From positions 1,000,690 to 1,064,689 of the forward strand of contig OY969472.1 in NCBI GenBank assembly GCA_963700155.1: a stretch of 64,000 nucleotides of DNA, written 5' to 3'. Shown here in pieces: positions 50,097 through 59,385 of the stretch; positions within the stretch are counted from its first letter, which is position 1; each line of letters opens with the position of its first letter. Origin of the DNA: an uncultured bacterium. Lineage in GTDB: Bacteria > Patescibacteriota > Dojkabacteria > J137. A model generated the notes under the pieces. The model saw only the letters and a list, made by a program, of their open reading frames with translations. It searched no databases and was not told the origin of the DNA. The translations under genes and the position numbers were made by a program.

Positions 50097-50954
50097 TTGG
50101 CTACATCAAAATCATTAACAAAGGAAGAAGTGGTTACTATAAATTTAAAACCATTCTTAGTACCTGCTTCAATTGTACTTTCAAGTATTATAATAGGTCT
50201 TAGCTTAATTATAGGTTTAGGTAATTTAGGATTAAATTTAAAAGGAAGTGTTACTACCTCTAATACAACTGCTGACTCAACGACTGATACTTCAGGAAAT
50301 GTTGCTGGAACAAGTGCTTCAGTAACTCAAGATCAAATAAAAAGCTTATTTAGTAATCCAGCTGCTATAACATTCGGTGATCCAAATAGTAAATTATTAT
50401 TAGTAGAATTCTCAGATACTAGTTGCCCTTATTGTCATGTAGCTGGAGGTGTTGATGGTGCTTTAAATACACAAATAGGTTCTCAATTTACAATGGTTGC
50501 AGATGGAGGAAGTTATGTTGCACCTGTTCCTGAATTCAAAAAGTTAGTTGATCAAGGTAAAGCTGCTTTTGCTTATGTTTATACTACTGGACATGGAAAT
50601 GGGAAACTTGGAAATCAAGCCCTGTTTTGTGCAAATGAAAAAGGAAAATTCTGGGATGCTCATGATTTATTGATGAATAATGATGGTTATAATCTTTTAA
50701 ACGATACAGTTCAAAATGACGTAAATAAAGCAAGTACCCTTGCTGACTTTTTATCTAGTGCTGTTGATAAATCTTTTATGACAGATTGCTTAAAGAGTGG
50801 TAAATATTCTGATCAAATAGCTGCTGGTGATCAATTAGCATCTACATTTGGAGTTAGTGGTACTCCAGGTTTCTTTGTTAACACAACTGAGTTTGCTGGA
50901 GCATATAGTTTTACAGATATGCAGTCTGCTGTTAATTCAGCTTTGGGTTCATAA
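50097..50954 (+). CDS. Secreted DsbA-like thiol:disulfide oxidoreductase
   Basis: It has an N-terminal TM or signal peptide and the thioredoxin CPYC active site (VEFSDTSCPYCHV). Confidence 0.7.
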   Translation: MATSKSLTKEEVVTINLKPFLVPASIVLSSIIIGLSLIIGLGNLGLNLKGSVTTSNTTADSTTDTSGNVAGTSASVTQDQIKSLFSNPAAITFGDPNSKLLLVEFSDTSCPYCHVAGGVDGALNTQIGSQFTMVADGGSYVAPVPEFKKLVDQGKAAFAYVYTTGHGNGKLGNQALFCANEKGKFWDAHDLLMNNDGYNLLNDTVQNDVNKASTLADFLSSAVDKSFMTDCLKSGKYSDQIAAGDQLASTFGVSGTPGFFVNTTEFAGAYSFTDMQSAVNSALGS

Positions 50955-51021: not shown

Positions 51022-51684
51022 TTAGTTTTTTACTTCTACACCTCCAAGTACAGAACTACCTTTAATAGTTAGCAATGGTTTAGTTGTGTCTTGTGAACTT
51101 TTGAAATTATTCTCCCACGCTCCTAAAGCCCCTTCACTCTTCACTTCAATTCTCATACTTTCAGGAACATATATTTCACCTCCTCCAAGTACTGAACCTA
51201 TAACTAAAACTGCTCCTCCTGATGCAATTTCTGCATCTCTTAAATCTAATTTGAAACCACCAAGAAAAGCATCAATTTTACCACCTCTGAAATTTTTTGA
51301 AGTAATATTCCAATCTGCTCCCCAAAGTGTAACACTTTCATTGATTGTATCTGATGAAACAGTAGAACCTTTCATCCAATGTTTTTCTGTCGGTTTAAAT
51401 AAAATTGAAAGACCTATAAAAATAATTATCAAAGGCCAACAAACTGCAAAAATATTTACACCTGTAAACTCACTTATAAAAAAAGTAACTCCTATTCCTG
51501 TCAATAGCAATCCTGCAAAAATATTACTTCTTAGAAGTAAATATATGCCTATTAATATAAGTATAAAAGGCCAAAAACTAAGAATGCTGAACCCCAAATT
51601 TATACCTAACTGGTCAACAAAAAAACCAACCCCGAGGGCCACGAAGATAAGGCCAATAATTATCGAGGAACTGCGGTTTCTCAT
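51022..51684 (-). CDS. Membrane protein with LiaF-like/toast-rack C-terminal domain
   Basis: It has N-terminal TM helices and a C-terminal G-rich beta domain (GGGEIYVPE...LGGVEVKN). Confidence 0.4.
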   Translation of the reverse strand: MRNRSSSIIIGLIFVALGVGFFVDQLGINLGFSILSFWPFILILIGIYLLLRSNIFAGLLLTGIGVTFFISEFTGVNIFAVCWPLIIIFIGLSILFKPTEKHWMKGSTVSSDTINESVTLWGADWNITSKNFRGGKIDAFLGGFKLDLRDAEIASGGAVLVIGSVLGGGEIYVPESMRIEVKSEGALGAWENNFKSSQDTTKPLLTIKGSSVLGGVEVKN

Positions 51685-51813
51685 AAGATAAAAAGTTAAT
51701 AATTAAGATATATCAATACATTGAGTATATTCTATCAAAAAATAGATGTAAATATAGTGATTGATTTTGTTTATAGATATCATTAAACTGGATTAGTTAA
51801 GAATTAGATAAAT

Positions 51814-53889
51814 ATGAAACCCTTAAGGATTACAATCCTTTTTATTATTATACTTTCATTAAGTATATTTCTTGCAGCTCCATTTTTTAGAATCTCGGCA
51901 AATGTAGTATCTGGTAAATATCTAATTAAAGTTGACAATAATTTTGATTTAAATAGCATCCAATATAATGAAATTAATAACCCAAAAAATTCAAATGGTA
52001 AATGGCTTGAACTTAATATAAAAAATGGAGCTGATTTGGAAGCTTTAAGAAATAATTCACATGTTCTTAATATTCAAAAAGAGGTTAAATATCAGACTAC
52101 CGATAATCCTGACGATCCTTATTATAATGAATTTGGTGGTGTACCTCCATTTACTGATAAATATGATCAGTGGAACTTAAGAGTAATAGGTCTTAATCCT
52201 ACTTCAGGAACATCAGGCTGGAATAATTCAACAGGAGATAATGGGACAATAGTTGCAGTAATAGATACTGGAATCGACCTTGGGAATGAAGATCTTCAGA
52301 ATAATTTATGGACTAACCTTGGTGAAACTCCTGGGAATAGTATTGATGATGATGGAAATGGTTATGTTGATGATGTTAATGGTTGGAATTTTGTTTCAAA
52401 TAGTAATGATATTCAGGATGTAGTAGTTTCTGGGAATGGTAAAGGACATGGAAGTCATGTTTCAGGAATTATTGCTGCTGATAGTAATAATTTAAAAGGT
52501 GTAGCAGGTGTTTGCTGGAATTGTAAATTAATGATATTAAATGTTTTTGATACGAATTCAACAACAAATGATGCAATAGTCTATAACGCTATCATTTATG
52601 CTGTAGACAATGGAGCAAAAGTTATTAATATGAGTATTGAAGGAGGTGGGTATTCCCAAAACATGCAAGATGCTGTTGATTATGCGTGGAGTCATGGAGT
52701 ACTTGTAGTAGTTGCTGCTGGTAATGATGGAGATGATGCATCGTATTATTCGCCTGCAGGTTTGAGTCATGTTATAACCGTCGGGGCTTCAGATCAGAAT
52801 GATACTTCAATTGCTTATGATCCAATCACATGCAATTCTCTAGTTTGTTTTTCAAATTATGGTCAAAAGTTAGATTTGATTGCTCCAGGATATAATATTT
52901 TATCTACGTGGCTTCATACTTTACCAAATACAAGTTGTGTTGGTGATACTAATTATTTTTGTTTAAGTGGAACTTCTATGTCAACACCACATGTAGCTGG
53001 GGTTGCAGCATTAATTTACGATCTACATCCGGGTTGGGATAATCTTGATGTAAGAAATGCATTGTTAAAAGAAGCTGATGATAAAGGTGCAGCTGGTTTC
53101 GATTCATTAGATGGTTTTGGAAGAGTTAATGCATATAATTCTTTAGAAAATGGTACTTCTGTATCAGGAATTACTTCCCCAACAGTTACATTAAATACTC
53201 CTGCAAATTTATATTTTAGTGATAATATAACACTCAATGGCACGGTAAATGCTGATGATTTATATATTTATAATTTGAAGTTTGAAAATTCAGGAAATAC
53301 TGTTTATCTCTATAGTGGACGAGGAAGTACAGACAATTCGGAATTAATAAATCAAGATGTGGGATTATCAGAAGGTGACTATGATGTAACTTTGTCTGCA
53401 GAAGATTTTAATGGAGCTGTAAGTTCGACTACTCCACTTACTATTCATGTTGATTTGACCCCTCCATCAAGTTTTACTATAGGAGCTCAAACAAGTAATA
53501 CATCTGTAACCTTAACTTTTTCGACAACAGATTCTTTGTCAGGAATATCTCATTATGAAGTATCTATGGATAGTGGTACATATCATACAAAGACGTCACC
53601 GTATATTGTTACAAACCTAAGTGATGGTTCTCACACAGCACATGTTAAAGCGTACGATAATGCAGGTAATGTTAAACAGGTAGATAAAACATTTACAATA
53701 ACATCAGAAAATTATATTTTAGAATCGAGCGGAGATTTTAATCATGATGACGATGTAGATTTGTCCGACTTAAGTATACTTGCCTCAAATTGGAACAAAA
53801 ACAGTAATAATGGAGATGCTAACCATGATGGTATTGTTGACTTATCTGATTTGAGTATTTTAGCTTTAAATTGGAATAAAACATTATAG
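51814..53889 (+). CDS. Subtilisin-like serine protease (S8) with Ig-like modules and two C-terminal dockerin-like repeats
   Basis: It has a signal peptide and the catalytic triad contexts VAVIDTGID, HGSHVSGIIA and GTSMSTPHVAG. The C-terminal repeats are DFNHDDDVDLSDLSILASNWN and DANHDGIVDLSDLSILALNWN. Confidence 0.85.
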   Translation: MKPLRITILFIIILSLSIFLAAPFFRISANVVSGKYLIKVDNNFDLNSIQYNEINNPKNSNGKWLELNIKNGADLEALRNNSHVLNIQKEVKYQTTDNPDDPYYNEFGGVPPFTDKYDQWNLRVIGLNPTSGTSGWNNSTGDNGTIVAVIDTGIDLGNEDLQNNLWTNLGETPGNSIDDDGNGYVDDVNGWNFVSNSNDIQDVVVSGNGKGHGSHVSGIIAADSNNLKGVAGVCWNCKLMILNVFDTNSTTNDAIVYNAIIYAVDNGAKVINMSIEGGGYSQNMQDAVDYAWSHGVLVVVAAGNDGDDASYYSPAGLSHVITVGASDQNDTSIAYDPITCNSLVCFSNYGQKLDLIAPGYNILSTWLHTLPNTSCVGDTNYFCLSGTSMSTPHVAGVAALIYDLHPGWDNLDVRNALLKEADDKGAAGFDSLDGFGRVNAYNSLENGTSVSGITSPTVTLNTPANLYFSDNITLNGTVNADDLYIYNLKFENSGNTVYLYSGRGSTDNSELINQDVGLSEGDYDVTLSAEDFNGAVSSTTPLTIHVDLTPPSSFTIGAQTSNTSVTLTFSTTDSLSGISHYEVSMDSGTYHTKTSPYIVTNLSDGSHTAHVKAYDNAGNVKQVDKTFTITSENYILESSGDFNHDDDVDLSDLSILASNWNKNSNNGDANHDGIVDLSDLSILALNWNKTL

Positions 53890-53929
53890 AAAAAGTTTCC
53901 TGTTTTAATTTAATTTTAAATACTATAAA

Positions 53930-55129
53930 ATGGGATTTATGAAGAAAAAAATATTAATCGTTTTTGTCGTAATTTTAAGTATATTTTTAACATTTCCAAA
54001 GGTTGACGCAGCATCAGTTAGTTTTTATACAACTGGAGGTGGAACTGTATATTACGGAAGTCAATTTAATATAAGTGTTTATGCAAACAGTTCAGATTCA
54101 TATAATGGATTTGAAATAAATGTAGATTACACAAACCTTACTTTTGTTGGAGTTTCTGCAGCATCTGGGTGGACTTGTATTGGTGGACCTTCTAATTCTG
54201 GTAATTCTGTTTATTCCGGAGGTTGTGCATTACTTGGAGGAAGTACAACTGGAAGTAAAAATATTCTTAATTTAACTTTTAGAGCTGTTAGCTATGCAGC
54301 AACAGCAACAATTAATAGCTCAGGTAAAATTACACTAGCTAATGGAAGTGGAACCAAAGTAAGTGGAGGCGGCAATACAGTTACTTATTATATAACTGAA
54401 GCACCGCCGCCTCCACCATCGGTACCAAGTGCAGTTAAAATTACTTCAAAAACTCATCCTTCTCAAAAAGATTGGTATAACAAAAATACAATAGAGTTTT
54501 CATGGAATAAAGAAGATGGTGTTGATGCTTTTAGTTATAGACTAGATCAAAAACCTGGTTTTACACCTGATACAAAAAGTGAAGGAGCTGCTACTACATA
54601 TACAACTGAAAATGTTCAGGATGGTATTAATTATTTTCATGTTAGAGCACATAATGATGTGGGGTGGGGGCCAGCGGTTGATTATACTGTGAAAATTGAT
54701 ATGACTGCTCCTGATCCTTTTGCTATTGCAAAGCTTGATAATGAAAGTGGTGATAAATATGTAATTTATTTTGCAACTAATGACAGCAGCTCTGGTATCG
54801 ATCATTATAACGTTGCGGTTGATGGTGTTGATATGGGGAAACAAGCTAGTGGTTATGAAGTTGATAAGTCTGTAGGTACAGTACAAGTTACGGCTTTTGA
54901 TAAAGCTGGTAATAGTATAAGTGAAAGTTTAGAAATTAATAATATTCCAGTAATAGTTACTAACGCACAAGGTGAAGTTCAAGGGTTTGTTTTTGATTTA
55001 AAATCAGCTTTAATTACTGTTGGAATTTTATTCATTCTTTTAATAATTGGTACTGCTCTTTTTATTTATATAAAGTATAGGAAGAAAAAAAACAATAGAA
55101 AAGCTGAGCAGGCACAAGCTCCTACATAA
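53930..55129 (+). CDS. Membrane-anchored surface protein with N-terminal cohesin-like domain, Pro linker and Ig-like modules
   Basis: It has a signal peptide. GSQFNISVYANSSDSYNGFEINVDYTNLTFVGVS resembles the cohesin core strands. A PPPPPSVPS linker follows, then modules homologous to the C-terminal modules of the S8 protease (T(A/P)PDPF...DS.SGI.HY.V..D). A C-terminal TM helix and a basic tail complete it. Confidence 0.45.
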   Translation: MGFMKKKILIVFVVILSIFLTFPKVDAASVSFYTTGGGTVYYGSQFNISVYANSSDSYNGFEINVDYTNLTFVGVSAASGWTCIGGPSNSGNSVYSGGCALLGGSTTGSKNILNLTFRAVSYAATATINSSGKITLANGSGTKVSGGGNTVTYYITEAPPPPPSVPSAVKITSKTHPSQKDWYNKNTIEFSWNKEDGVDAFSYRLDQKPGFTPDTKSEGAATTYTTENVQDGINYFHVRAHNDVGWGPAVDYTVKIDMTAPDPFAIAKLDNESGDKYVIYFATNDSSSGIDHYNVAVDGVDMGKQASGYEVDKSVGTVQVTAFDKAGNSISESLEINNIPVIVTNAQGEVQGFVFDLKSALITVGILFILLIIGTALFIYIKYRKKKNNRKAEQAQAPT

Positions 55130-55820
55130 TTATCTTATTGAGTTCATTTAGATTTAAAATCTTTAATCGACCATATCTTGTTTGAATTAAACCTTTAGAT
55201 TTTAACTCTCCTAATTTTCTAGTAGCAGTTTCTCTTGTAGTTCCGGCAAATGATGCAATTAATTCATGTGATATATTTAAATTGAAATCAATAGTATTTT
55301 CCCTCTTATCTCCTAAATTTTCTGCAAGACTTACTAATGTAGATATAATACGGTATGAACAATCGTGATAGATTAATTGTTTTGCTTTATTAATAACTCT
55401 ATTTACATTTTGGATATAAAGACTTGAGGCGTTACTTCTGGCATCTGGGTTTAATCTTAAAAAATCACCCATTACCCCTTTAGGTATTATCCTAAGTTCA
55501 GATTCTGTTAAAGTTTCATAAAAACATAGTGCAGTCTCATCTCCCTCAAAGTATGGATTTAATGGTAATAAAGAATTATTTTTAAATATACTAATACTTA
55601 ATTCATTTCCATCAACTGATGTAACAAAACTTCTGATAAATCCTCTCTCTAGAAAGTAAAAATTTTCAGATGTGGAATTGGGAGTTAGTATTATTCTCCG
55701 TGGTGGTAAAACATGGATAGAATGTAAAAGGCAGAAGTTCTTGATTTTTTCAGATGTCTTCACCATTAATATAGTACTAAAAATCTTAGTAATATACTCT
55801 CTTATTGACTGAGTATACAA
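55122..55820 (-). CDS. Crp/Fnr-family transcriptional regulator
   Basis: It has a cNMP-binding beta-barrel and a C-terminal HTH (SHELIASFAGTTRETATRKLGELKSKGLI). Confidence 0.8.
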   Translation of the reverse strand: MYTQSIREYITKIFSTILMVKTSEKIKNFCLLHSIHVLPPRRIILTPNSTSENFYFLERGFIRSFVTSVDGNELSISIFKNNSLLPLNPYFEGDETALCFYETLTESELRIIPKGVMGDFLRLNPDARSNASSLYIQNVNRVINKAKQLIYHDCSYRIISTLVSLAENLGDKRENTIDFNLNISHELIASFAGTTRETATRKLGELKSKGLIQTRYGRLKILNLNELNKIIM

Positions 55821-55948: not shown

Positions 55949-56590
55949 ATGACCAGAATACTTTCTGGATTACTATTAGTTACTATGCTAGTAGTTTCAG
56001 TGGGAGGCGCAACTTTAGCACTTTTTAGTGACCAGTCAGATATAAAAGGCTTAACTGTAAGCGCAGGTAATGCAAATATCCAATTGGGTTACACTAATGC
56101 TCCTAATAGTCATGTGTTTTTACCAGGCGATTTAGATTTTGGCGGGTCACCTTTTGAAGGCCCCTTATATCCTGGATATCATGCAGGGGTAGTAACTAAT
56201 TTAGATGCTAAAGATTTGTGGGTTGCAAATGTAAGTGCTGCACCTGTTGCTCTTAATTTATCAATGAAATTGACTACATTACCAACAAATTGGGGTAACC
56301 AATTATCATATGCTATAGAAGTTTTAGTAAAAGATGAAAATAGTGGTTTAAACACTGGCTGGATCACTATGACAAGATGGGATGATGCTTATGTTGATTT
56401 ACCTGGTGGATCACTTGCATCAGGTACTTCTAGAAGGTTCTTTATATTTACTAGAGTTCCATTTCATTATGGAGATAATGATTCTTCCTATGCTGGTGGA
56501 CCTACTTTAGGTTCAGATATAGGAAATGAGATTGCAAATCAGACATTATCTGGTGGAGCATTCACAGTATTAGGTGAACAAGTTCCTTAA
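55949..56590 (+). CDS. TasA/camelysin-like protein with SipW-cognate signal peptide (paralog 1)
   Basis: The N-terminus is ...VGGATLALFSDQSDIKGLTVSAGNANIQL (the GGTxAxFSD..NT..AG motif). The shared C-terminal strand is GNEIANQTLSGGAFTVLG. Confidence 0.65.
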   Translation: MTRILSGLLLVTMLVVSVGGATLALFSDQSDIKGLTVSAGNANIQLGYTNAPNSHVFLPGDLDFGGSPFEGPLYPGYHAGVVTNLDAKDLWVANVSAAPVALNLSMKLTTLPTNWGNQLSYAIEVLVKDENSGLNTGWITMTRWDDAYVDLPGGSLASGTSRRFFIFTRVPFHYGDNDSSYAGGPTLGSDIGNEIANQTLSGGAFTVLGEQVP

Positions 56591-56607
56591 TTCTAAAAAT
56601 AGGTTAA

Positions 56608-56634
56608 AAGGGCTCAAATGGAATTTGAGCCCTT
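56608..56634 (+). terminator. Hairpin terminator (12-bp stem, 3-nt loop)
   Basis: AAGGGCTCAAAT-gga-ATTTGAGCCCTT. Confidence 0.55.
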
Positions 56635-56688
56635 CCTATTTATCTTCGTAAAATTATTCCTTTGCTATATACGTTTATAGAATATAAT

Positions 56689-56704
56689 TGTGATATTTAT
56701 CACA
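56689..56704. promoter_or_regulatory. CRP-like palindrome TGTGA-tattta-TCACA
   Basis: It has perfect half-sites and lies 63 nt upstream of the 56767 start. Confidence 0.5.
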
Positions 56705-56766
56705 TTTAATTATTTCTATATTTTCTAAAATTTAAATATCTCTTTTTTATTTTTTAATTTAATTTT

Positions 56767-57300
56767 ATGAAACGGATTTATGCTGCGTTTATAGTGATTA
56801 TTCTGCTTGCAGTTGGAGTAGGAGCAGCAACTTATGCTCTACTATCTGATACTGCAAAAGTAGATGGTATAACACTTGCTACAGGTAATGCAGATATTCA
56901 AATATCAGATGATAGTTTAAACTTCGTTGAAGATTATCCTGTCTCAGATAGTATAACTGGTTTGGTACCAGGTTATCAAAGTCCTACAATAAATTTCCAT
57001 TTAAAAAATAATGGTACAGTAGACCTTCATGTCACTGTAAGGCTTACTCATGCAGATGATGATTGGGCAGCTTTGAAAGATAATGTATATATTCATGTAA
57101 TATCAGCAGATACTGGTATTGATCATGATTTTACACTAGCACAATGGAATTCAACTGACAGGGATCTTGGTAATTTAAGCGTTGGAAGTACTGCAGAATA
57201 TTCTGTTGATGTTCATGTTCCTTCATCAGTTGGAAATGAGATTGCAAATAAACAAATTAATAATGTTACTTTTATTGTAACTGGAACGCAGATTCTTTAA
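56767..57300 (+). CDS. TasA/camelysin-like protein with SipW-cognate signal peptide (paralog 2)
   Basis: N-terminus VGAATYALLSDTAKVDGITLATGNADIQI. C-terminus VGNEIANKQINNVTFIVTGTQ. Confidence 0.65.
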   Translation: MKRIYAAFIVIILLAVGVGAATYALLSDTAKVDGITLATGNADIQISDDSLNFVEDYPVSDSITGLVPGYQSPTINFHLKNNGTVDLHVTVRLTHADDDWAALKDNVYIHVISADTGIDHDFTLAQWNSTDRDLGNLSVGSTAEYSVDVHVPSSVGNEIANKQINNVTFIVTGTQIL

Positions 57301-57356
57301 GAATTAAGTAGTAAGTAATTTTAATATTTAACTCTTTTATATATTAGTTTAACTTT

Positions 57357-57893
57357 ATGAAGCGAATATATGCTGGTTTTATGATAGTGATTCTGCTTGC
57401 AGCGGGTGTTGGAGCAGCAACTTATGCTTTTTTATTTGATAACGCAACAGTAGAAGGAATTTCTATCTCAACAGGAAATGCTGATATTCAAATATGGGAT
57501 GGTTCTGAATATAAAGACTACTGGTTTGTTGGAGCAGCTTTAAATGGATTGTATCCAGGTGCTAGTGAGATTGTTGATGCTAAATTAAAAAATGCAAGTA
57601 CTTCTGATATACCACTTAAAGTTTCATTACAATTAACAAGTGCTGGTGGTGATTGGGGGGCACTTAAAGATGCAATTAAAATTAAAGTTGCAGACAATAC
57701 TAATACAACAGTATATCTTAACAAGACATTATCTGAACTTAATTCTCAAGCTTGGGACTTTGGTCCTGATATCCCTTTTGGTGGTGATCAAGAATATAAA
57801 ATAACAGTGTATATTCCTGATTCATTTGGAAATGAAATTAAGAATAAGACCATTAATCCTGTTCAATTTGTAATAACAGGTACACAGGATTAA
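57357..57893 (+). CDS. TasA/camelysin-like protein with SipW-cognate signal peptide (paralog 3)
   Basis: N-terminus VGAATYAFLFDNATVEGISISTGNADIQI. C-terminus FGNEIKNKTINPVQFVITGTQ. There is no terminator between paralogs 2 and 3. Confidence 0.6.
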   Translation: MKRIYAGFMIVILLAAGVGAATYAFLFDNATVEGISISTGNADIQIWDGSEYKDYWFVGAALNGLYPGASEIVDAKLKNASTSDIPLKVSLQLTSAGGDWGALKDAIKIKVADNTNTTVYLNKTLSELNSQAWDFGPDIPFGGDQEYKITVYIPDSFGNEIKNKTINPVQFVITGTQD

Positions 57894-57905
57894 TTTTGGT
57901 TATTG

Positions 57906-57934
57906 AAGTGATTGTTTAGGCGCTTAAATTGAAA
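57906..57934 (+). terminator. Hairpin terminator (13-bp stem)
   Basis: AGGCGCTTAAATT-gaa-AATTTAAGCGCCT followed by a T/A-rich run. Confidence 0.55.
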
Positions 57935-58070
57935 ATTTAAGCGCCTTTAATATATTTATATAATTAACATCAATATAAATTTAACAATTTTAGTAATATA
58001 TTCAAATATACATTATATATACAGTAAAAATTAAATTAATATAAAGTAGTTATAAATAAATAGAATTAAT

Positions 58071-58086
58071 TGTGATTTATATCACT
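58071..58086. promoter_or_regulatory. CRP-like palindrome TGTGA-tttata-TCACT
   Basis: It lies 62 nt upstream of the 58148 start, the same spacing as the other sites. Confidence 0.45.
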
Positions 58087-58147
58087 GTTATAATTTCATT
58101 TATGTTTTAAATTAATCGTAAATATTTTATTTCTTATATATTATTTT

Positions 58148-58726
58148 ATGGTAAGAATACTAGCGGGATTTCTCGTAATAGTTTCTTTATTAACAGCTGT
58201 AGGAGGAGCAACATTAGCTGTTTTTAGTGACACAAGCGAAATATTAGGTAATACAATTTCAACAGCACAGGTAGATATTGATGCACACGGTGAGTCAAAT
58301 AATACCACAGCACCAAAACCAATTGATGAAAGTGGCTTGGTTCCAGGTGAATGGACAGATTGGTTTAGAGGTATAGTTTATAATAAAGCAGATAGTACAA
58401 ATGTAAGAGTTTATATGTATTTAAGTAATGTTACAGGAGCTGCATGTAGTAAAACTAATTTAACTGTTAGAACAGGTTTTGCTGGAAGTGATGCAGGAGA
58501 AAGAGCAAACTCAATGTATGATGGTTCAGTCGCAGGTTTGACAGGACCAGGTAATAGAATAGAACTTACAGGTCCAGTATTTCATGCACCTGACTGGCTA
58601 CCATATAATACATCATTAGTAGTACAACAGGCTGCACAATTAGACCCTTCAGCTGGTAACACATACACAAATAAATCTTGTGATTGGTCAGAAGTATTTG
58701 TAGCTGAGACACCTACCTTACCTTAA
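58148..58726 (+). CDS. TasA/camelysin-like protein with SipW-cognate signal peptide (paralog 4, divergent C-terminus)
   Basis: N-terminus VGGATLAVFSDTSEILGNTISTAQVDIDA. The body is divergent. Confidence 0.6.
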   Translation: MVRILAGFLVIVSLLTAVGGATLAVFSDTSEILGNTISTAQVDIDAHGESNNTTAPKPIDESGLVPGEWTDWFRGIVYNKADSTNVRVYMYLSNVTGAACSKTNLTVRTGFAGSDAGERANSMYDGSVAGLTGPGNRIELTGPVFHAPDWLPYNTSLVVQQAAQLDPSAGNTYTNKSCDWSEVFVAETPTLP

Positions 58727-58749
58727 GTTAGGACTTTTTTAGCTTTTAA

Positions 58750-58776
58750 AGTCCCGGCAATTTCATTGCCGGGACT
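58750..58776 (+). terminator. Hairpin (12-bp stem), weak T-tract
   Basis: AGTCCCGGCAAT-ttc-ATTGCCGGGACT. Confidence 0.45.
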
Positions 58777-58818
58777 GTTGGTATTTAATATATCTGTATA
58801 GAATGTTAATATTAGTCA

Positions 58819-59385
58819 ATGAAAAATTCATCACCTTTGAAAGTTGTTTATAAAGTTATTGTTACAATAGTATTAATTCTTTTTGTTGCTTTAGCAACTT
58901 TAACAATACTCTCTTTATTAGAATTTCCAAGACAATTTAGAATCTTTGTTGTCGAAACAGGATCAATGTCTCCAACAATTCCTGCCGGGAGTTTGATTAT
59001 TGATTCTAGTGAGAATACATATAAAGTTGGGGATATTATTACTTTTAATGCTCTTGCCGATTCTGAATCTACAAAAGTTACACCGATAACTCATAGACTT
59101 ACCCAGATTATTCAACAAAATGGTGTTACAGTATATGAAACAAAGGGAGATGCAAACAATGCTCCTGACGGGGAATATCGAGATCCAAATAATGTAATAG
59201 GTAAAGTACAATTTTATTTACCTTATGTTGGAACACTAGTTGGTTTTGCAAAAACACAACTTGGATTCGTTATAGTAATACTGATTCCAACAATATTAAT
59301 TATTTTGAGCGAACTTAATAACATTAAAAAAGAATTTATAAAACTAAAGGAAAAGAAAAGTGAGAAGTTAAATATTAATACGTAA
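58819..59385 (+). CDS. sipW: Signal peptidase I, SipW (archaeal/ER) type
   Basis: It has an N-terminal TM helix, the catalytic Ser context VETGSMSPTIPAGSLII, and a C-terminal TM helix. Its size of about 190 aa is SipW-like. Confidence 0.8.
   Translation: MKNSSPLKVVYKVIVTIVLILFVALATLTILSLLEFPRQFRIFVVETGSMSPTIPAGSLIIDSSENTYKVGDIITFNALADSESTKVTPITHRLTQIIQQNGVTVYETKGDANNAPDGEYRDPNNVIGKVQFYLPYVGTLVGFAKTQLGFVIVILIPTILIILSELNNIKKEFIKLKEKKSEKLNINT

What the first reader, a model, noticed from the sequence alone, without database searches (positions are those of the whole stretch)
51814..55129. Cohesin-dockerin-like pairing between a surface anchor and a subtilisin protease
The S8 protease ends in two dockerin-like calcium-binding repeats (D.NHD..VDLSDLSIL..NWN). 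The next gene encodes a signal-peptide protein with a cohesin-like beta-sandwich at its N-terminus and a C-terminal TM anchor. The two proteins also share two internal Ig/Fn3-like modules. This layout fits a mini cellulosome-style tethering of a protease to the cell surface.
Basis: partly seen in the sequence, partly recalled or inferred. Interest (0 to 1): 0.6.

Follow-up and report, generated by a model that had tools for sequence, protein, structure and literature searches.

The report
Membrane cohesin tethers a dockerin-tagged protease
Two neighbouring genes in a small-genome Patescibacteria (probably Dojkabacteria) bacterium encode a secreted subtilisin-type protease ending in a dockerin tag and a membrane-anchored protein tipped with the matching cohesin socket, a cellulosome-style "plug and socket" apparently reused to hold a protease on the cell surface.

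Summary

- **Gene A (51814-53889):** an S8 protease with catalytic residues D151/H212/S388. Its last 56 residues are a true, divergent type-I-like dockerin with two 12-residue calcium loops, each followed by a helix.
- **Gene B (53930-55129):** signal peptide, cohesin domain, Pro-rich linker, two Ig-like modules, one transmembrane helix and a basic tail.
- **Pfam:** it misses the cohesin and scores the dockerin below threshold. Relatives pass both thresholds.
- **Profiles and models:** family profiles hit solved dockerins (E 1e-10) and, as best matches, cohesins (E about 1e-3). AlphaFold models (pLDDT 95 and 90) match solved cohesins and dockerins best.
- **Synteny (strongest evidence):** in 21 of 21 related loci from Dojkabacteria, Berkelbacteria and Saccharibacteria-labelled genomes, the gene directly upstream of the B homolog ends in this dockerin. 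Its "head" varies: S8 protease, NHL propeller or unknown domains.
- **Correction:** only one Ig module is significantly shared between A and B, not two.
- **Not shown:** physical binding.

This is a non-cellulosomal, membrane-anchored, one-cohesin/one-cargo variant of a known system. It is moderately interesting and not categorically new.

The parts
51814..53889 (+). Gene A: secreted S8 (subtilisin-family) protease with two Ig-like modules and a C-terminal dockerin (691 aa)
   Evidence: ORF. Pfam S8, Big_13 and sub-threshold Dockerin_1. An identical protein is in public data on a 1.14-Mb contig, unnamed and with no dockerin annotated.
51814..51900 (+). Signal peptide of A (about aa 1-29, MKPLRITILFIIILSLSIFLAAPFFRISA)
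   Evidence: The only hydrophobic 19-residue windows in A lie at residues 1-29. The cleavage site is inferred.
52240..53121 (+). S8 catalytic domain (aa 143-436), triad D151/H212/S388
   Evidence: Pfam PF00082, E 3.1e-56. Motifs DTG, HGSH and GTSM located.
53146..53703 (+). Two Ig-like modules of A (about aa 445-545 and 546-630). The second, Big_13/OmpL47-type, is the one shared with gene B.
   Evidence: Pfam Big_13 at 554-629 (31 bits) and Big_3_3/PKD at 516-565. NCBIfam OmpL47-type barrel, E 4e-10, 39.9 bits, just under the 40-bit cutoff. BLASTP A 543-619 against B 253-328, E 8e-8.
53719..53886 (+). Dockerin module (aa 636-691). Calcium loop 1 is aa 641-652 (nt 53734-53769) and loop 2 is aa 668-679 (nt 53815-53850). 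Each loop is followed by a helix (LSILASNW / LSILALNW).
53890..53929 (+). 40-nt intergenic spacer between A and B with no terminator-like site. Co-transcription is inferred.
   Evidence: Gaps of -13 to 533 nt (mostly under 90) occur in the 21 related loci.
53930..55129 (+). Gene B: type I membrane protein with a distal cohesin (399 aa). The true start is probably the ATG at 53939.
   Evidence: ORF. Homologs start MKK, and M4 and K6 are invariant.
53930..54010 (+). Signal peptide of B (aa 1-27, ...FPKVDA|A)
   Evidence: Sequence and hydropathy. A27 is invariant in homologs.
54011..54409 (+). Cohesin domain (aa 28-160)
   Evidence: Relatives pass the Pfam Cohesin threshold at the aligned position. 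Family profile against PDB gives cohesins as the best matches, with two designed Ig proteins among the top ten. The profile hits a protein with nine Pfam cohesins at E 1e-52. AF2 pLDDT 95.2. Foldseek top hits are cohesins.
54410..54439 (+). Pro-rich linker (EAPPPPPSVP, aa 161-170)
   Evidence: Sequence. Conserved as a PPPPP-type stretch in homologs.
54440..54934 (+). Stalk: Fn3-like module (about aa 171-256) and Big_13/OmpL47-like Ig module (about aa 257-335)
   Evidence: Weak fn3 and OmpL47 hits. fn3 is above threshold in homolog P0005. Similarity to the Big_13 module of A.
55007..55126 (+). Transmembrane helix (aa 360-381) and basic cytoplasmic tail (aa 382-399). No LPXTG motif and no SLH domain.
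   Evidence: Hydropathy and sequence. Distant homologs carry tails of about 100 aa after the helix, so this is a true membrane span and not a cleaved sorting signal.

Best explanation
Genes A and B form a two-gene surface-display cassette.

Both products are exported through Sec. B stays in the cytoplasmic membrane through its single C-terminal helix, with the basic tail inside the cell. A stalk made of two Ig-like modules and a Pro-rich linker projects one cohesin domain outward. The S8 protease A carries a C-terminal dockerin whose two calcium-loaded loop-helix segments plug into that cohesin. This holds one protease molecule non-covalently on each anchor at the cell surface.

The two dockerin segments are almost identical, so either could make the main contact (a dual binding mode). 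That point is inferred.

For a Patescibacteria cell with a small genome, a tethered protease would release peptides next to its own transporters, or act on a host cell it touches. That is speculation.

Shown here:
- domain identities and folds;
- an intact catalytic triad;
- export and anchor signals;
- conserved gene pairing with variable cargo.

Inferred: cohesin-dockerin binding, calcium dependence, co-transcription, 1:1 stoichiometry and the biological role.
For: - Dockerin. The calcium-loop spacing is intact in both repeats. A profile of orthologous tails hits solved dockerins (E 1.1e-10, full length). Orthologous tails pass the Pfam Dockerin_1 threshold, for example 34.6, 36.1 and 35.4 bits. 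The AF2 model has pLDDT 89.6, and 24 of 25 Foldseek hits are dockerins, the best at TM 0.79 and rmsd 1.1 A.
- Cohesin. Distant homologs P0016, P0017, P0018 and P0020 pass the Pfam Cohesin threshold at the aligned N-domain. The family profile's best PDB matches are cohesins, at modest E-values of about 1e-3. The same profile scores 1.2e-52 on P0142, which holds nine Pfam cohesins and a dockerin. The AF2 model has pLDDT 95.2, and its top PDB matches are cohesins with TM 0.7-0.79.
- Pairing. In 21 of 21 loci with upstream DNA, a dockerin-ending ORF lies directly upstream on the same strand. Among these 21 loci and the window no other dockerin hit occurs; the only further hits, among 1,711 ORF segments scanned over 432 kb, lie in the multi-cohesin clusters of L008-L010.
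- Cargo. It differs between loci: S8 protease, NHL propeller, or unknown heads of 320-440 aa and 1105 aa. Only the dockerin is constant.
- Expression and topology. There is no terminator in the 40-nt spacer. The signal peptides, transmembrane helix and basic tail are present.
Against:
- The window's own domains fail Pfam thresholds: no cohesin hit, and dockerin at 16.1 bits against 22.9.
- Foldseek also lists generic beta-sandwiches below the cohesins, such as the CLIPPER adhesin domain and integrin domains.
- The 21 loci include some close relatives (for example L003/L011 and L006/L012), so there are fewer independent observations than 21.
- Dockerin-like modules without known cohesin partners are common. 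An essential dockerin-domain envelope protein in a cultivated Saccharibacterium has no adjacent cohesin gene.
Confidence: 0.75

Rival explanations
1. The modules are real, but the neighbours are not each other's partners. The dockerin-like tail would bind something else, such as a cell-wall or host glycan, an S-layer, or a cohesin encoded elsewhere. B would be an independent adhesin or an anchor for other proteins.
For: Dockerin-like modules often occur without an identified cohesin partner. Wang et al. 2023 proposed glycan targeting for an essential dockerin-domain protein of a Saccharibacterium (PMC10633639), and that gene has no cohesin neighbour. Binding was not tested here.
Against: Adjacency holds in 21 of 21 loci on the same strand, mostly with gaps under 90 nt. 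The dockerin is the only part of the upstream protein that is conserved. Apart from the multi-cohesin clusters of L008-L010, no stray dockerin appears in the 432 kb of sequence scanned (window plus fetched loci). Cohesins are known only as dockerin receptors (established knowledge of the family).
Confidence: 0.12
2. B is a substrate, folding helper or latency factor for protease A, that is, an operon of an enzyme and its accessory protein. The cohesin and dockerin resemblances would then be incidental beta-sandwich and EF-hand-like folds.
For: The genes are adjacent and probably co-transcribed. The two proteins share one Ig-like module. The window's own domains fall below Pfam thresholds.
Against: The same B-type gene follows NHL-propeller and unknown-head proteins that have no protease domain. 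A protease-specific role therefore cannot explain the conservation. Family-level sequence evidence and structure evidence places both modules in the cohesin and dockerin families.
Confidence: 0.05
3. The pairing acts between cells and not in cis. B's cohesin on one cell would capture dockerin-bearing proteins from another cell or from a host, serving adhesion and not enzyme display.
For: Cultivated Patescibacteria are epibionts and depend on envelope proteins for host contact (PMC10633639). NHL propellers and unknown heads look more like binding modules than enzymes.
Against: Both genes sit in one operon-like pair in the same genome. The cargo has its own signal peptide and no anchor. The simplest reading is capture in cis after secretion. 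No host-encoded dockerins were examined.
Confidence: 0.08

Closest known systems
Cellulosomal anchoring proteins with a single cohesin, such as Clostridium thermocellum OlpA/OlpC (SLH-anchored, type I cohesin) and Ruminococcus flavefaciens ScaE (sortase-anchored)
   Same: A cell-bound protein presents a cohesin that captures a dockerin-tagged secreted protein. The dockerin has two calcium loop-helix segments at the C-terminus of the cargo. Stalk or linker modules sit between the cohesin and the anchor. (OlpA/OlpC are from my own knowledge; ScaE and the SLH/sortase anchoring modes are from PMC12484212.)
   Different: The anchor here is a C-terminal transmembrane helix with a cytoplasmic tail, not SLH or LPXTG. 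There is no CBM, no multi-cohesin scaffoldin and no CAZyme cargo in the window. Cohesin and cargo are encoded as a fixed gene pair. The host is a Patescibacteria lineage, not a cellulolytic Firmicute.
Non-cellulosomal cohesin-dockerin pairs: Archaeoglobus fulgidus cohesin (PDB 2xdh) and Clostridium perfringens NagH/NagJ toxin complexes (PDB 2ozn, 2vo8, 2jh2)
   Same: Cohesin and dockerin modules are used outside plant cell-wall degradation. These are the best structural matches to the window's cohesin model: 2xdh at E 6.5e-7, and 2vo8 at TM 0.77/0.79. 2ozn_B is among the best dockerin matches.
   Different: Sequence identity is only 8-17%. Those systems link soluble enzymes or multi-module proteins to each other and do not use a membrane-anchored monovalent receptor with a neighbouring cargo gene (my own knowledge of those systems; not tested here).
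Dockerin-bearing peptidases of cellulosome producers: R. flavefaciens FD-1 peptidases, and C. thermocellum Clo1313_0689 serine protease with a double dockerin (PDB 8x39)
   Same: These are proteases tagged with dockerins for incorporation through cohesins (PMC2930009). 8x39 appears among the hits of the tail profile and of the dockerin model.
   Different: Those proteases join large multi-enzyme cellulosomes through scaffoldins. Here the protease appears to be the sole cargo of a dedicated membrane anchor.

Membership tests
Dockerin type I (Pfam PF00404) | Tandem duplication of a segment of about 22 residues, each a 12-residue EF-hand-like calcium loop (D1, N/D3, D/N5, D/N9, D12) followed by an alpha-helix | tested here: met
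   Loops at 641-652 (DFNHDDDVDLSD) and 668-679 (DANHDGIVDLSD), each followed by LSILA-NW. Model helices at tail residues 20-28 and 47-55. The loops align column for column with the 2y3n_B and 4fl4_A dockerins.
Dockerin type I (Pfam PF00404) | Sequence-family membership (score above the curated Pfam threshold, or significant profile match to known members) | tested here: met
   The window's tail alone is below threshold (16.1 bits against 22.9). Orthologous tails pass at 27-36 bits. The tail profile hits solved dockerins at E 1.1e-10 to 1e-3, ahead of any EF-hand protein. Nearly all database hits of the profile carry PF00404.
Dockerin type I (Pfam PF00404) | Dockerin fold | tested here: met
   AF2 pLDDT 89.6. 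Foldseek: 24 of 25 hits are dockerins, the best being 2y3n_B at TM 0.79/0.80 and rmsd 1.1 A.
Dockerin type I (Pfam PF00404) | Calcium-dependent binding to a cohesin | not testable with these tools
   Needs biochemistry or a complex prediction.
Cohesin (Pfam PF00963) | Flattened beta-sandwich (jelly-roll) of about 140 residues, matching solved cohesins better than other folds | tested here: met
   AF2 pLDDT 95.2, all-beta. Of the top 12 Foldseek PDB matches, 11 are cohesins; rank 4 is a CLIPPER adhesin domain. Examples are 2xdh (E 6.5e-7), 6kgf, 5n5p, 2jh2 and 2vo8 (TM 0.77/0.79). Generic beta-sandwiches rank lower.
Cohesin (Pfam PF00963) | Sequence-family membership | tested here: met
   There is no direct Pfam hit for the window protein. 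Homologs aligned over the same domain pass the threshold (25.7-38.3 bits against 24.1). The family profile's best PDB matches are cohesins (E about 1e-3). It scores 1.2e-52 on P0142, which has nine Pfam cohesins.
Cohesin (Pfam PF00963) | Binds a dockerin | not testable with these tools
   Supported only indirectly, by the 21 of 21 conserved adjacency to a dockerin-ending gene.
Cellulosome (multi-enzyme polysaccharide-degrading complex) | Scaffoldin with several cohesins, usually a CBM, and dockerin-bearing carbohydrate-active enzymes | tested here: not met
   There is one cohesin and one dockerin in the 64-kb window and no CBM. The cargo is a protease. The rest of the genome was not available.
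Cellulosome anchoring scaffoldins | Attachment to the wall by SLH modules or a sortase LPXTG signal | tested here: not met
   No SLH hit and no LPXTG before the hydrophobic helix. Distant homologs have long cytoplasmic tails after the helix. The anchoring modes are as reviewed in PMC12484212.
Peptidase S8 (subtilases) | Catalytic domain with the Asp-His-Ser triad in that order | tested here: met
   PF00082, E 3.1e-56 over the full profile 2-288. D151 (DTG), H212 (HGSH) and S388 (GTSMS) are present.

The most novel reading that the evidence does not exclude
Several Patescibacteria lineages (Dojkabacteria, Berkelbacteria, Saccharibacteria-labelled MAGs) may share a "plug-and-play" surface-display cassette that no paper found here describes. 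It would consist of a membrane-anchored monovalent cohesin, always co-encoded with exactly one dockerin-tagged cargo. Evolution would swap the cargo head (S8 protease, NHL propeller, unknown domains) while keeping the plug and socket. Such cassettes could be a main way for these wall-poor, host-dependent cells to arm their surface for feeding on or attaching to hosts.
Probability: 0.45. Interest if true: 0.55.

Novelty: new variant of a known kind. Interest (0 to 1): 0.45.

Why it matters
Cohesin-dockerin pairs are among the strongest known protein-protein connectors, and they are studied almost entirely in cellulose-degrading Firmicutes.

This locus, together with its 21 of 21 syntenic relatives, suggests that ultra-small Patescibacteria use the same connector in minimal form: one membrane-anchored socket and one cargo. 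The cargo is a protease or a binding propeller, not a carbohydrate-active enzyme.

If binding is confirmed, three things follow:
- It gives a concrete, testable handle on how these largely uncultivated, host-dependent bacteria equip their surface.
- It shows that standard Pfam annotation misses both modules in this lineage. The public copies of both proteins carry no such annotation.
- It adds a divergent cohesin-dockerin specificity group, with a natural transmembrane anchor, to the toolbox for surface-display engineering.

The mechanism itself would not be new.

Tried and rejected
- **Direct Pfam and NCBIfam scan of gene B for Cohesin.** No hit. This was resolved through homologs and profiles.
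- **Co-fold of cohesin and dockerin as one fused chain.** I built a paired alignment of 13 loci.
- **Genome scan with the full 21-sequence alignment.** It failed for lack of a conserved stretch. The scan was repeated with the 15 close homologs.
- **Census of cargo types using the dockerin-tail profile against the 5.8-billion-protein set.** Only short fragments of 112 aa or less came back. They confirm family membership but say nothing about cargo.
A 445-549 against B 164-257 gives no alignment. Rejected.
- **Link to the essential dockerin-domain protein SEML1_0315 of Southlakia epibionticum.** Its neighbours are an alpha/beta hydrolase and a tRNA, not a cohesin. It is therefore not the same cassette.
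- **Peer et al. 2009 (non-cellulosomal cohesins and dockerins).** The paper is not held in the library, so its content is cited only from memory and through PMC2930009.
- **Actinobacterial hits of the genome scan (L025, L028, L030).** They match only the Fn3/Ig region and were excluded as non-homologous in architecture.
- **Sortase-type sorting signal for B.** Rejected. There is no LPXTG, and distant homologs have long cytoplasmic tails.
Full report
**1. What is there**

The finding's coordinates match two adjacent + strand ORFs, 51814-53889 (A, 691 aa) and 53930-55129 (B, 399 aa). They lie in a window of about 30% G+C.

Gene A:
- It is a subtilase. Pfam Peptidase_S8 covers residues 143-436 at E 3.1e-56.
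- The catalytic residues D151, H212 and S388 are intact.
- It has an N-terminal signal peptide and two Ig-like modules. The second is Big_13/OmpL47-type, residues 554-629.
- It ends in a 56-residue tail.

Gene B:
- It has a signal peptide (aa 1-27, VDA|A), an N-domain of about 135 aa and a Pro-rich linker.
- Two Ig/Fn3-like modules follow.
- It has a single hydrophobic helix (aa 360-381) and a basic tail.

The 40-nt spacer between A and B holds no terminator-like site. Homologs of B begin MKK, so the real start is probably the ATG at 53939.

**2. The dockerin**

The tail of A contains two nearly identical segments, DFNHDDDVDLSD-LSILASNWNK and DANHDGIVDLSD-LSILALNWNK. Asp/Asn residues sit at loop positions 1, 3, 5, 9 and 12, as in dockerin calcium loops.

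- Alone, the tail is sub-threshold for Pfam Dockerin_1 (16.1 bits against 22.9, E 0.013).
- Tails of orthologous proteins from related loci pass the threshold at 27-36 bits.
- A profile of 13 such tails (A5) matches solved dockerins over its full length. The best is 2y3n_B at E 1.1e-10, and about 30 dockerins rank before any EF-hand protein.
- Against the 5.8-billion-protein set, almost every hit of this profile already carries PF00404.
- An AlphaFold model of the window's tail has pLDDT 89.6 and two helices, each preceded by a loop.
- Of its 25 Foldseek PDB matches, 24 are dockerins. The best is 2y3n_B at TM 0.79/0.80, rmsd 1.1 A and 36% identity.

**3. The cohesin**

B has no Pfam hit of its own. 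A database search found 15 close homologs (41-53% identity, same architecture) and six distant ones. Four of the distant ones (P0016, P0017, P0018, P0020) pass the Pfam Cohesin threshold exactly where they align with B's N-domain.

- A profile of the N-domain (A2) finds cohesins as its best matches among solved structures, at modest E-values of about 1e-3; two designed Ig proteins also appear in the top ten.
- Against 1.84 billion representative proteins, the profile finds 7,613 relatives at E ≤ 1e-3 and 3,407 at E ≤ 1e-10.
- The best of these, P0142 (E 1.2e-52), is a 2,276-aa protein with nine Pfam cohesins and a dockerin.
- The AlphaFold model of residues 27-164 is confident (pLDDT 95.2, all-beta).
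- Its best PDB matches are cohesins: the non-cellulosomal A. fulgidus cohesin 2xdh (E 6.5e-7, TM 0.72), C. acetobutylicum CohA2, an R. flavefaciens type III cohesin, and C. perfringens cohesins up to TM 0.77/0.79.
- Generic beta-sandwiches such as integrin domains, YcnI and pilins mostly rank lower; one CLIPPER adhesin domain sits at rank 4.

**4. Comparative evidence for pairing**

I fetched the neighbourhoods of B homologs from metagenome assemblies and from GTDB species representatives. The named genomes are Candidatus Dojkabacteria, Berkelbacteria and Saccharibacteria-labelled MAGs. I then scanned every ORF in these loci with HMMs of the tail and of the N-domain.

- In 21 of 21 loci with upstream DNA, the ORF directly upstream on the same strand ends in this dockerin, within 0-5 residues of its stop codon.
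- The gaps to the B start range from -13 to 533 nt, and most are under 90 nt.
- Those 21 loci hold no other dockerin hit. Across all 1,711 ORF segments (432 kb) scanned, the only further hits lie in the multi-cohesin clusters L008-L010.

The upstream protein's "head" is not conserved:
- S8 protease in the window, L001, L005, L013, L015, L016 and L017;
- NHL beta-propeller in L003/L004, L006/L007 and L011;
- unknown heads of 320-440 aa in L018, L020-L024, L026, L027 and L029;
- an 1105-aa protein in L019.

Close B homologs at about 50% identity follow either S8 or NHL cargo, so cargo has been exchanged within the cassette.

Some loci are close relatives, so there are fewer independent events than 21. 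Even so, the pattern is what a functional plug-and-socket pair predicts. It is not what a protease-specific accessory gene predicts.

**5. Mechanism proposed**

Both proteins are secreted. B is retained in the membrane by its C-terminal helix. Distant homologs have cytoplasmic tails of about 100 aa after that helix, so it is a true span and not a cleaved sorting signal. B presents its cohesin on a stalk made of the linker and two Ig modules.

The dockerin of A binds the cohesin in a calcium-dependent way, displaying one protease per anchor. Because the two dockerin halves are nearly identical, a dual binding mode is plausible.

Binding, calcium dependence, co-transcription and the physiological role (local peptide release or action on a host surface) are all inferences. 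I estimate 0.75 that the two modules are partners.

**6. Correction to the observation**

Only one Ig-like module is demonstrably shared: A 543-619 against B 253-328, 34% identity, E 8e-8. The other pair shows no similarity.

**7. Comparison with what is known**

Functionally this works like a cellulosomal anchoring cohesin, such as the single-cohesin anchors OlpA/OlpC or ScaE. Structurally it is closest to non-cellulosomal cohesins.

Dockerin-tagged peptidases are known in R. flavefaciens (PMC2930009). A C. thermocellum serine protease with a double dockerin has a solved structure, 8x39.

It is not a cellulosome:
- there is one cohesin, no CBM and no CAZyme cargo;
- the anchor is neither SLH nor sortase, the two standard modes (PMC12484212).

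Literature searches combining dockerin and cohesin with CPR, Patescibacteria, Dojkabacteria or Saccharibacteria found no description of this cassette. A biogas MAG survey only counts cohesin and dockerin genes and, separately, predicts some Dojkabacteria to be associated with carbohydrate degradation (PMC7038595). Wang et al. 2023 report an essential dockerin-domain envelope protein in a Saccharibacterium (PMC10633639), but it has no cohesin neighbour.

NCBI already names some relatives [quoted passage not shown]. The presence of these modules in the group is therefore known at the annotation level. The window's own two proteins are in public data, on a 1.14-Mb contig, without names or these domain calls.

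**8. Verdict**

This is a new variant of a known kind: a membrane-anchored, monovalent, operon-encoded cohesin-dockerin display pair with swappable non-CAZyme cargo in Patescibacteria.

Interest is moderate (0.45). The mechanism is familiar. The conserved cassette in host-dependent, ultra-small bacteria is a useful and testable lead.

Noticed in passing
window 55949-59385 (+): Four paralogous small secreted proteins (213, 177, 178 and 192 aa) have similar N-terminal signal sequences. The first passes the NCBIfam model for SipW-dependent signal peptides (TIGR04088, 21.1 bits against a cutoff of 19). The second has a weak camelysin/Peptidase_M73 hit. They are followed by an archaeal/SipW-type signal peptidase I (TIGR02228, E 8e-31). 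This looks like a TasA/camelysin-like fibre cluster. It lies just downstream of the cohesin gene, separated by a divergent Crp/Fnr regulator (55122-55820, minus strand). Locus L005 has a similar layout.
   Followed up: partly
window 53930-53941: The annotated ATG at 53930 gives MGFMKKK. All close homologs start MKK, and M4 and K6 are invariant in the alignment. The true start of gene B is therefore probably the ATG at 53939.
   Followed up: partly
L009 6208-6972 and L010 8441-9205; L008 4616-9251: Other Patescibacteria loci hold more complex sets. One is a 255-aa ORF segment (called gene 247 aa) carrying both a cohesin (aa 57-177) and a dockerin (aa 202-252), like an adaptor scaffoldin. Another is a run of three consecutive cohesin genes next to a small Big_6/Big_13 + dockerin gene.
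   Followed up: no
protein P0142 (2,276 aa, from the representative library): The best match of the window's cohesin profile is a protein with nine Pfam cohesins, Big_7 and fn3 modules and a C-terminal dockerin. This is a true multi-cohesin scaffoldin related to this cohesin subfamily. Its source organism is unknown.
   Followed up: partly
window 55001-55009 (B aa 353-359) and the aligned positions in homologs: A short juxtamembrane motif, F-[DN]-x-[KR]-[ST], is fairly conserved just before the transmembrane helix in close B homologs (FDLKS, FDVRT, FDIRT, FDWKT, FNWIS). It could simply be a membrane-boundary feature or an unrecognised sorting signal.
   Followed up: no
window 50097-50954 (+) and 51022-51684 (-): A membrane-tethered DsbA/thioredoxin-like protein and a LiaF-like envelope-stress protein lie just upstream. 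The DsbA-like gene and a DEAD-box helicase keep the same positions in L005 and L032. Protease A has six cysteines and B's cohesin has two, so a link to disulfide formation is possible but untested. The + strand ORF 51086-51691 is an antisense shadow of the LiaF-like gene.
   Followed up: no
L018-L029 (Berkelbacteria and Saccharibacteria-labelled subgroup): In this subgroup the N-domain of the B homolog is shorter (about 115 aa). Pfam does not detect it as a cohesin, and my cohesin HMM detects it only weakly or not at all. Yet the dockerin-ending gene upstream, the Fn3 stalk and the overall layout are all kept. This may be a further-diverged cohesin class.
   Followed up: partly
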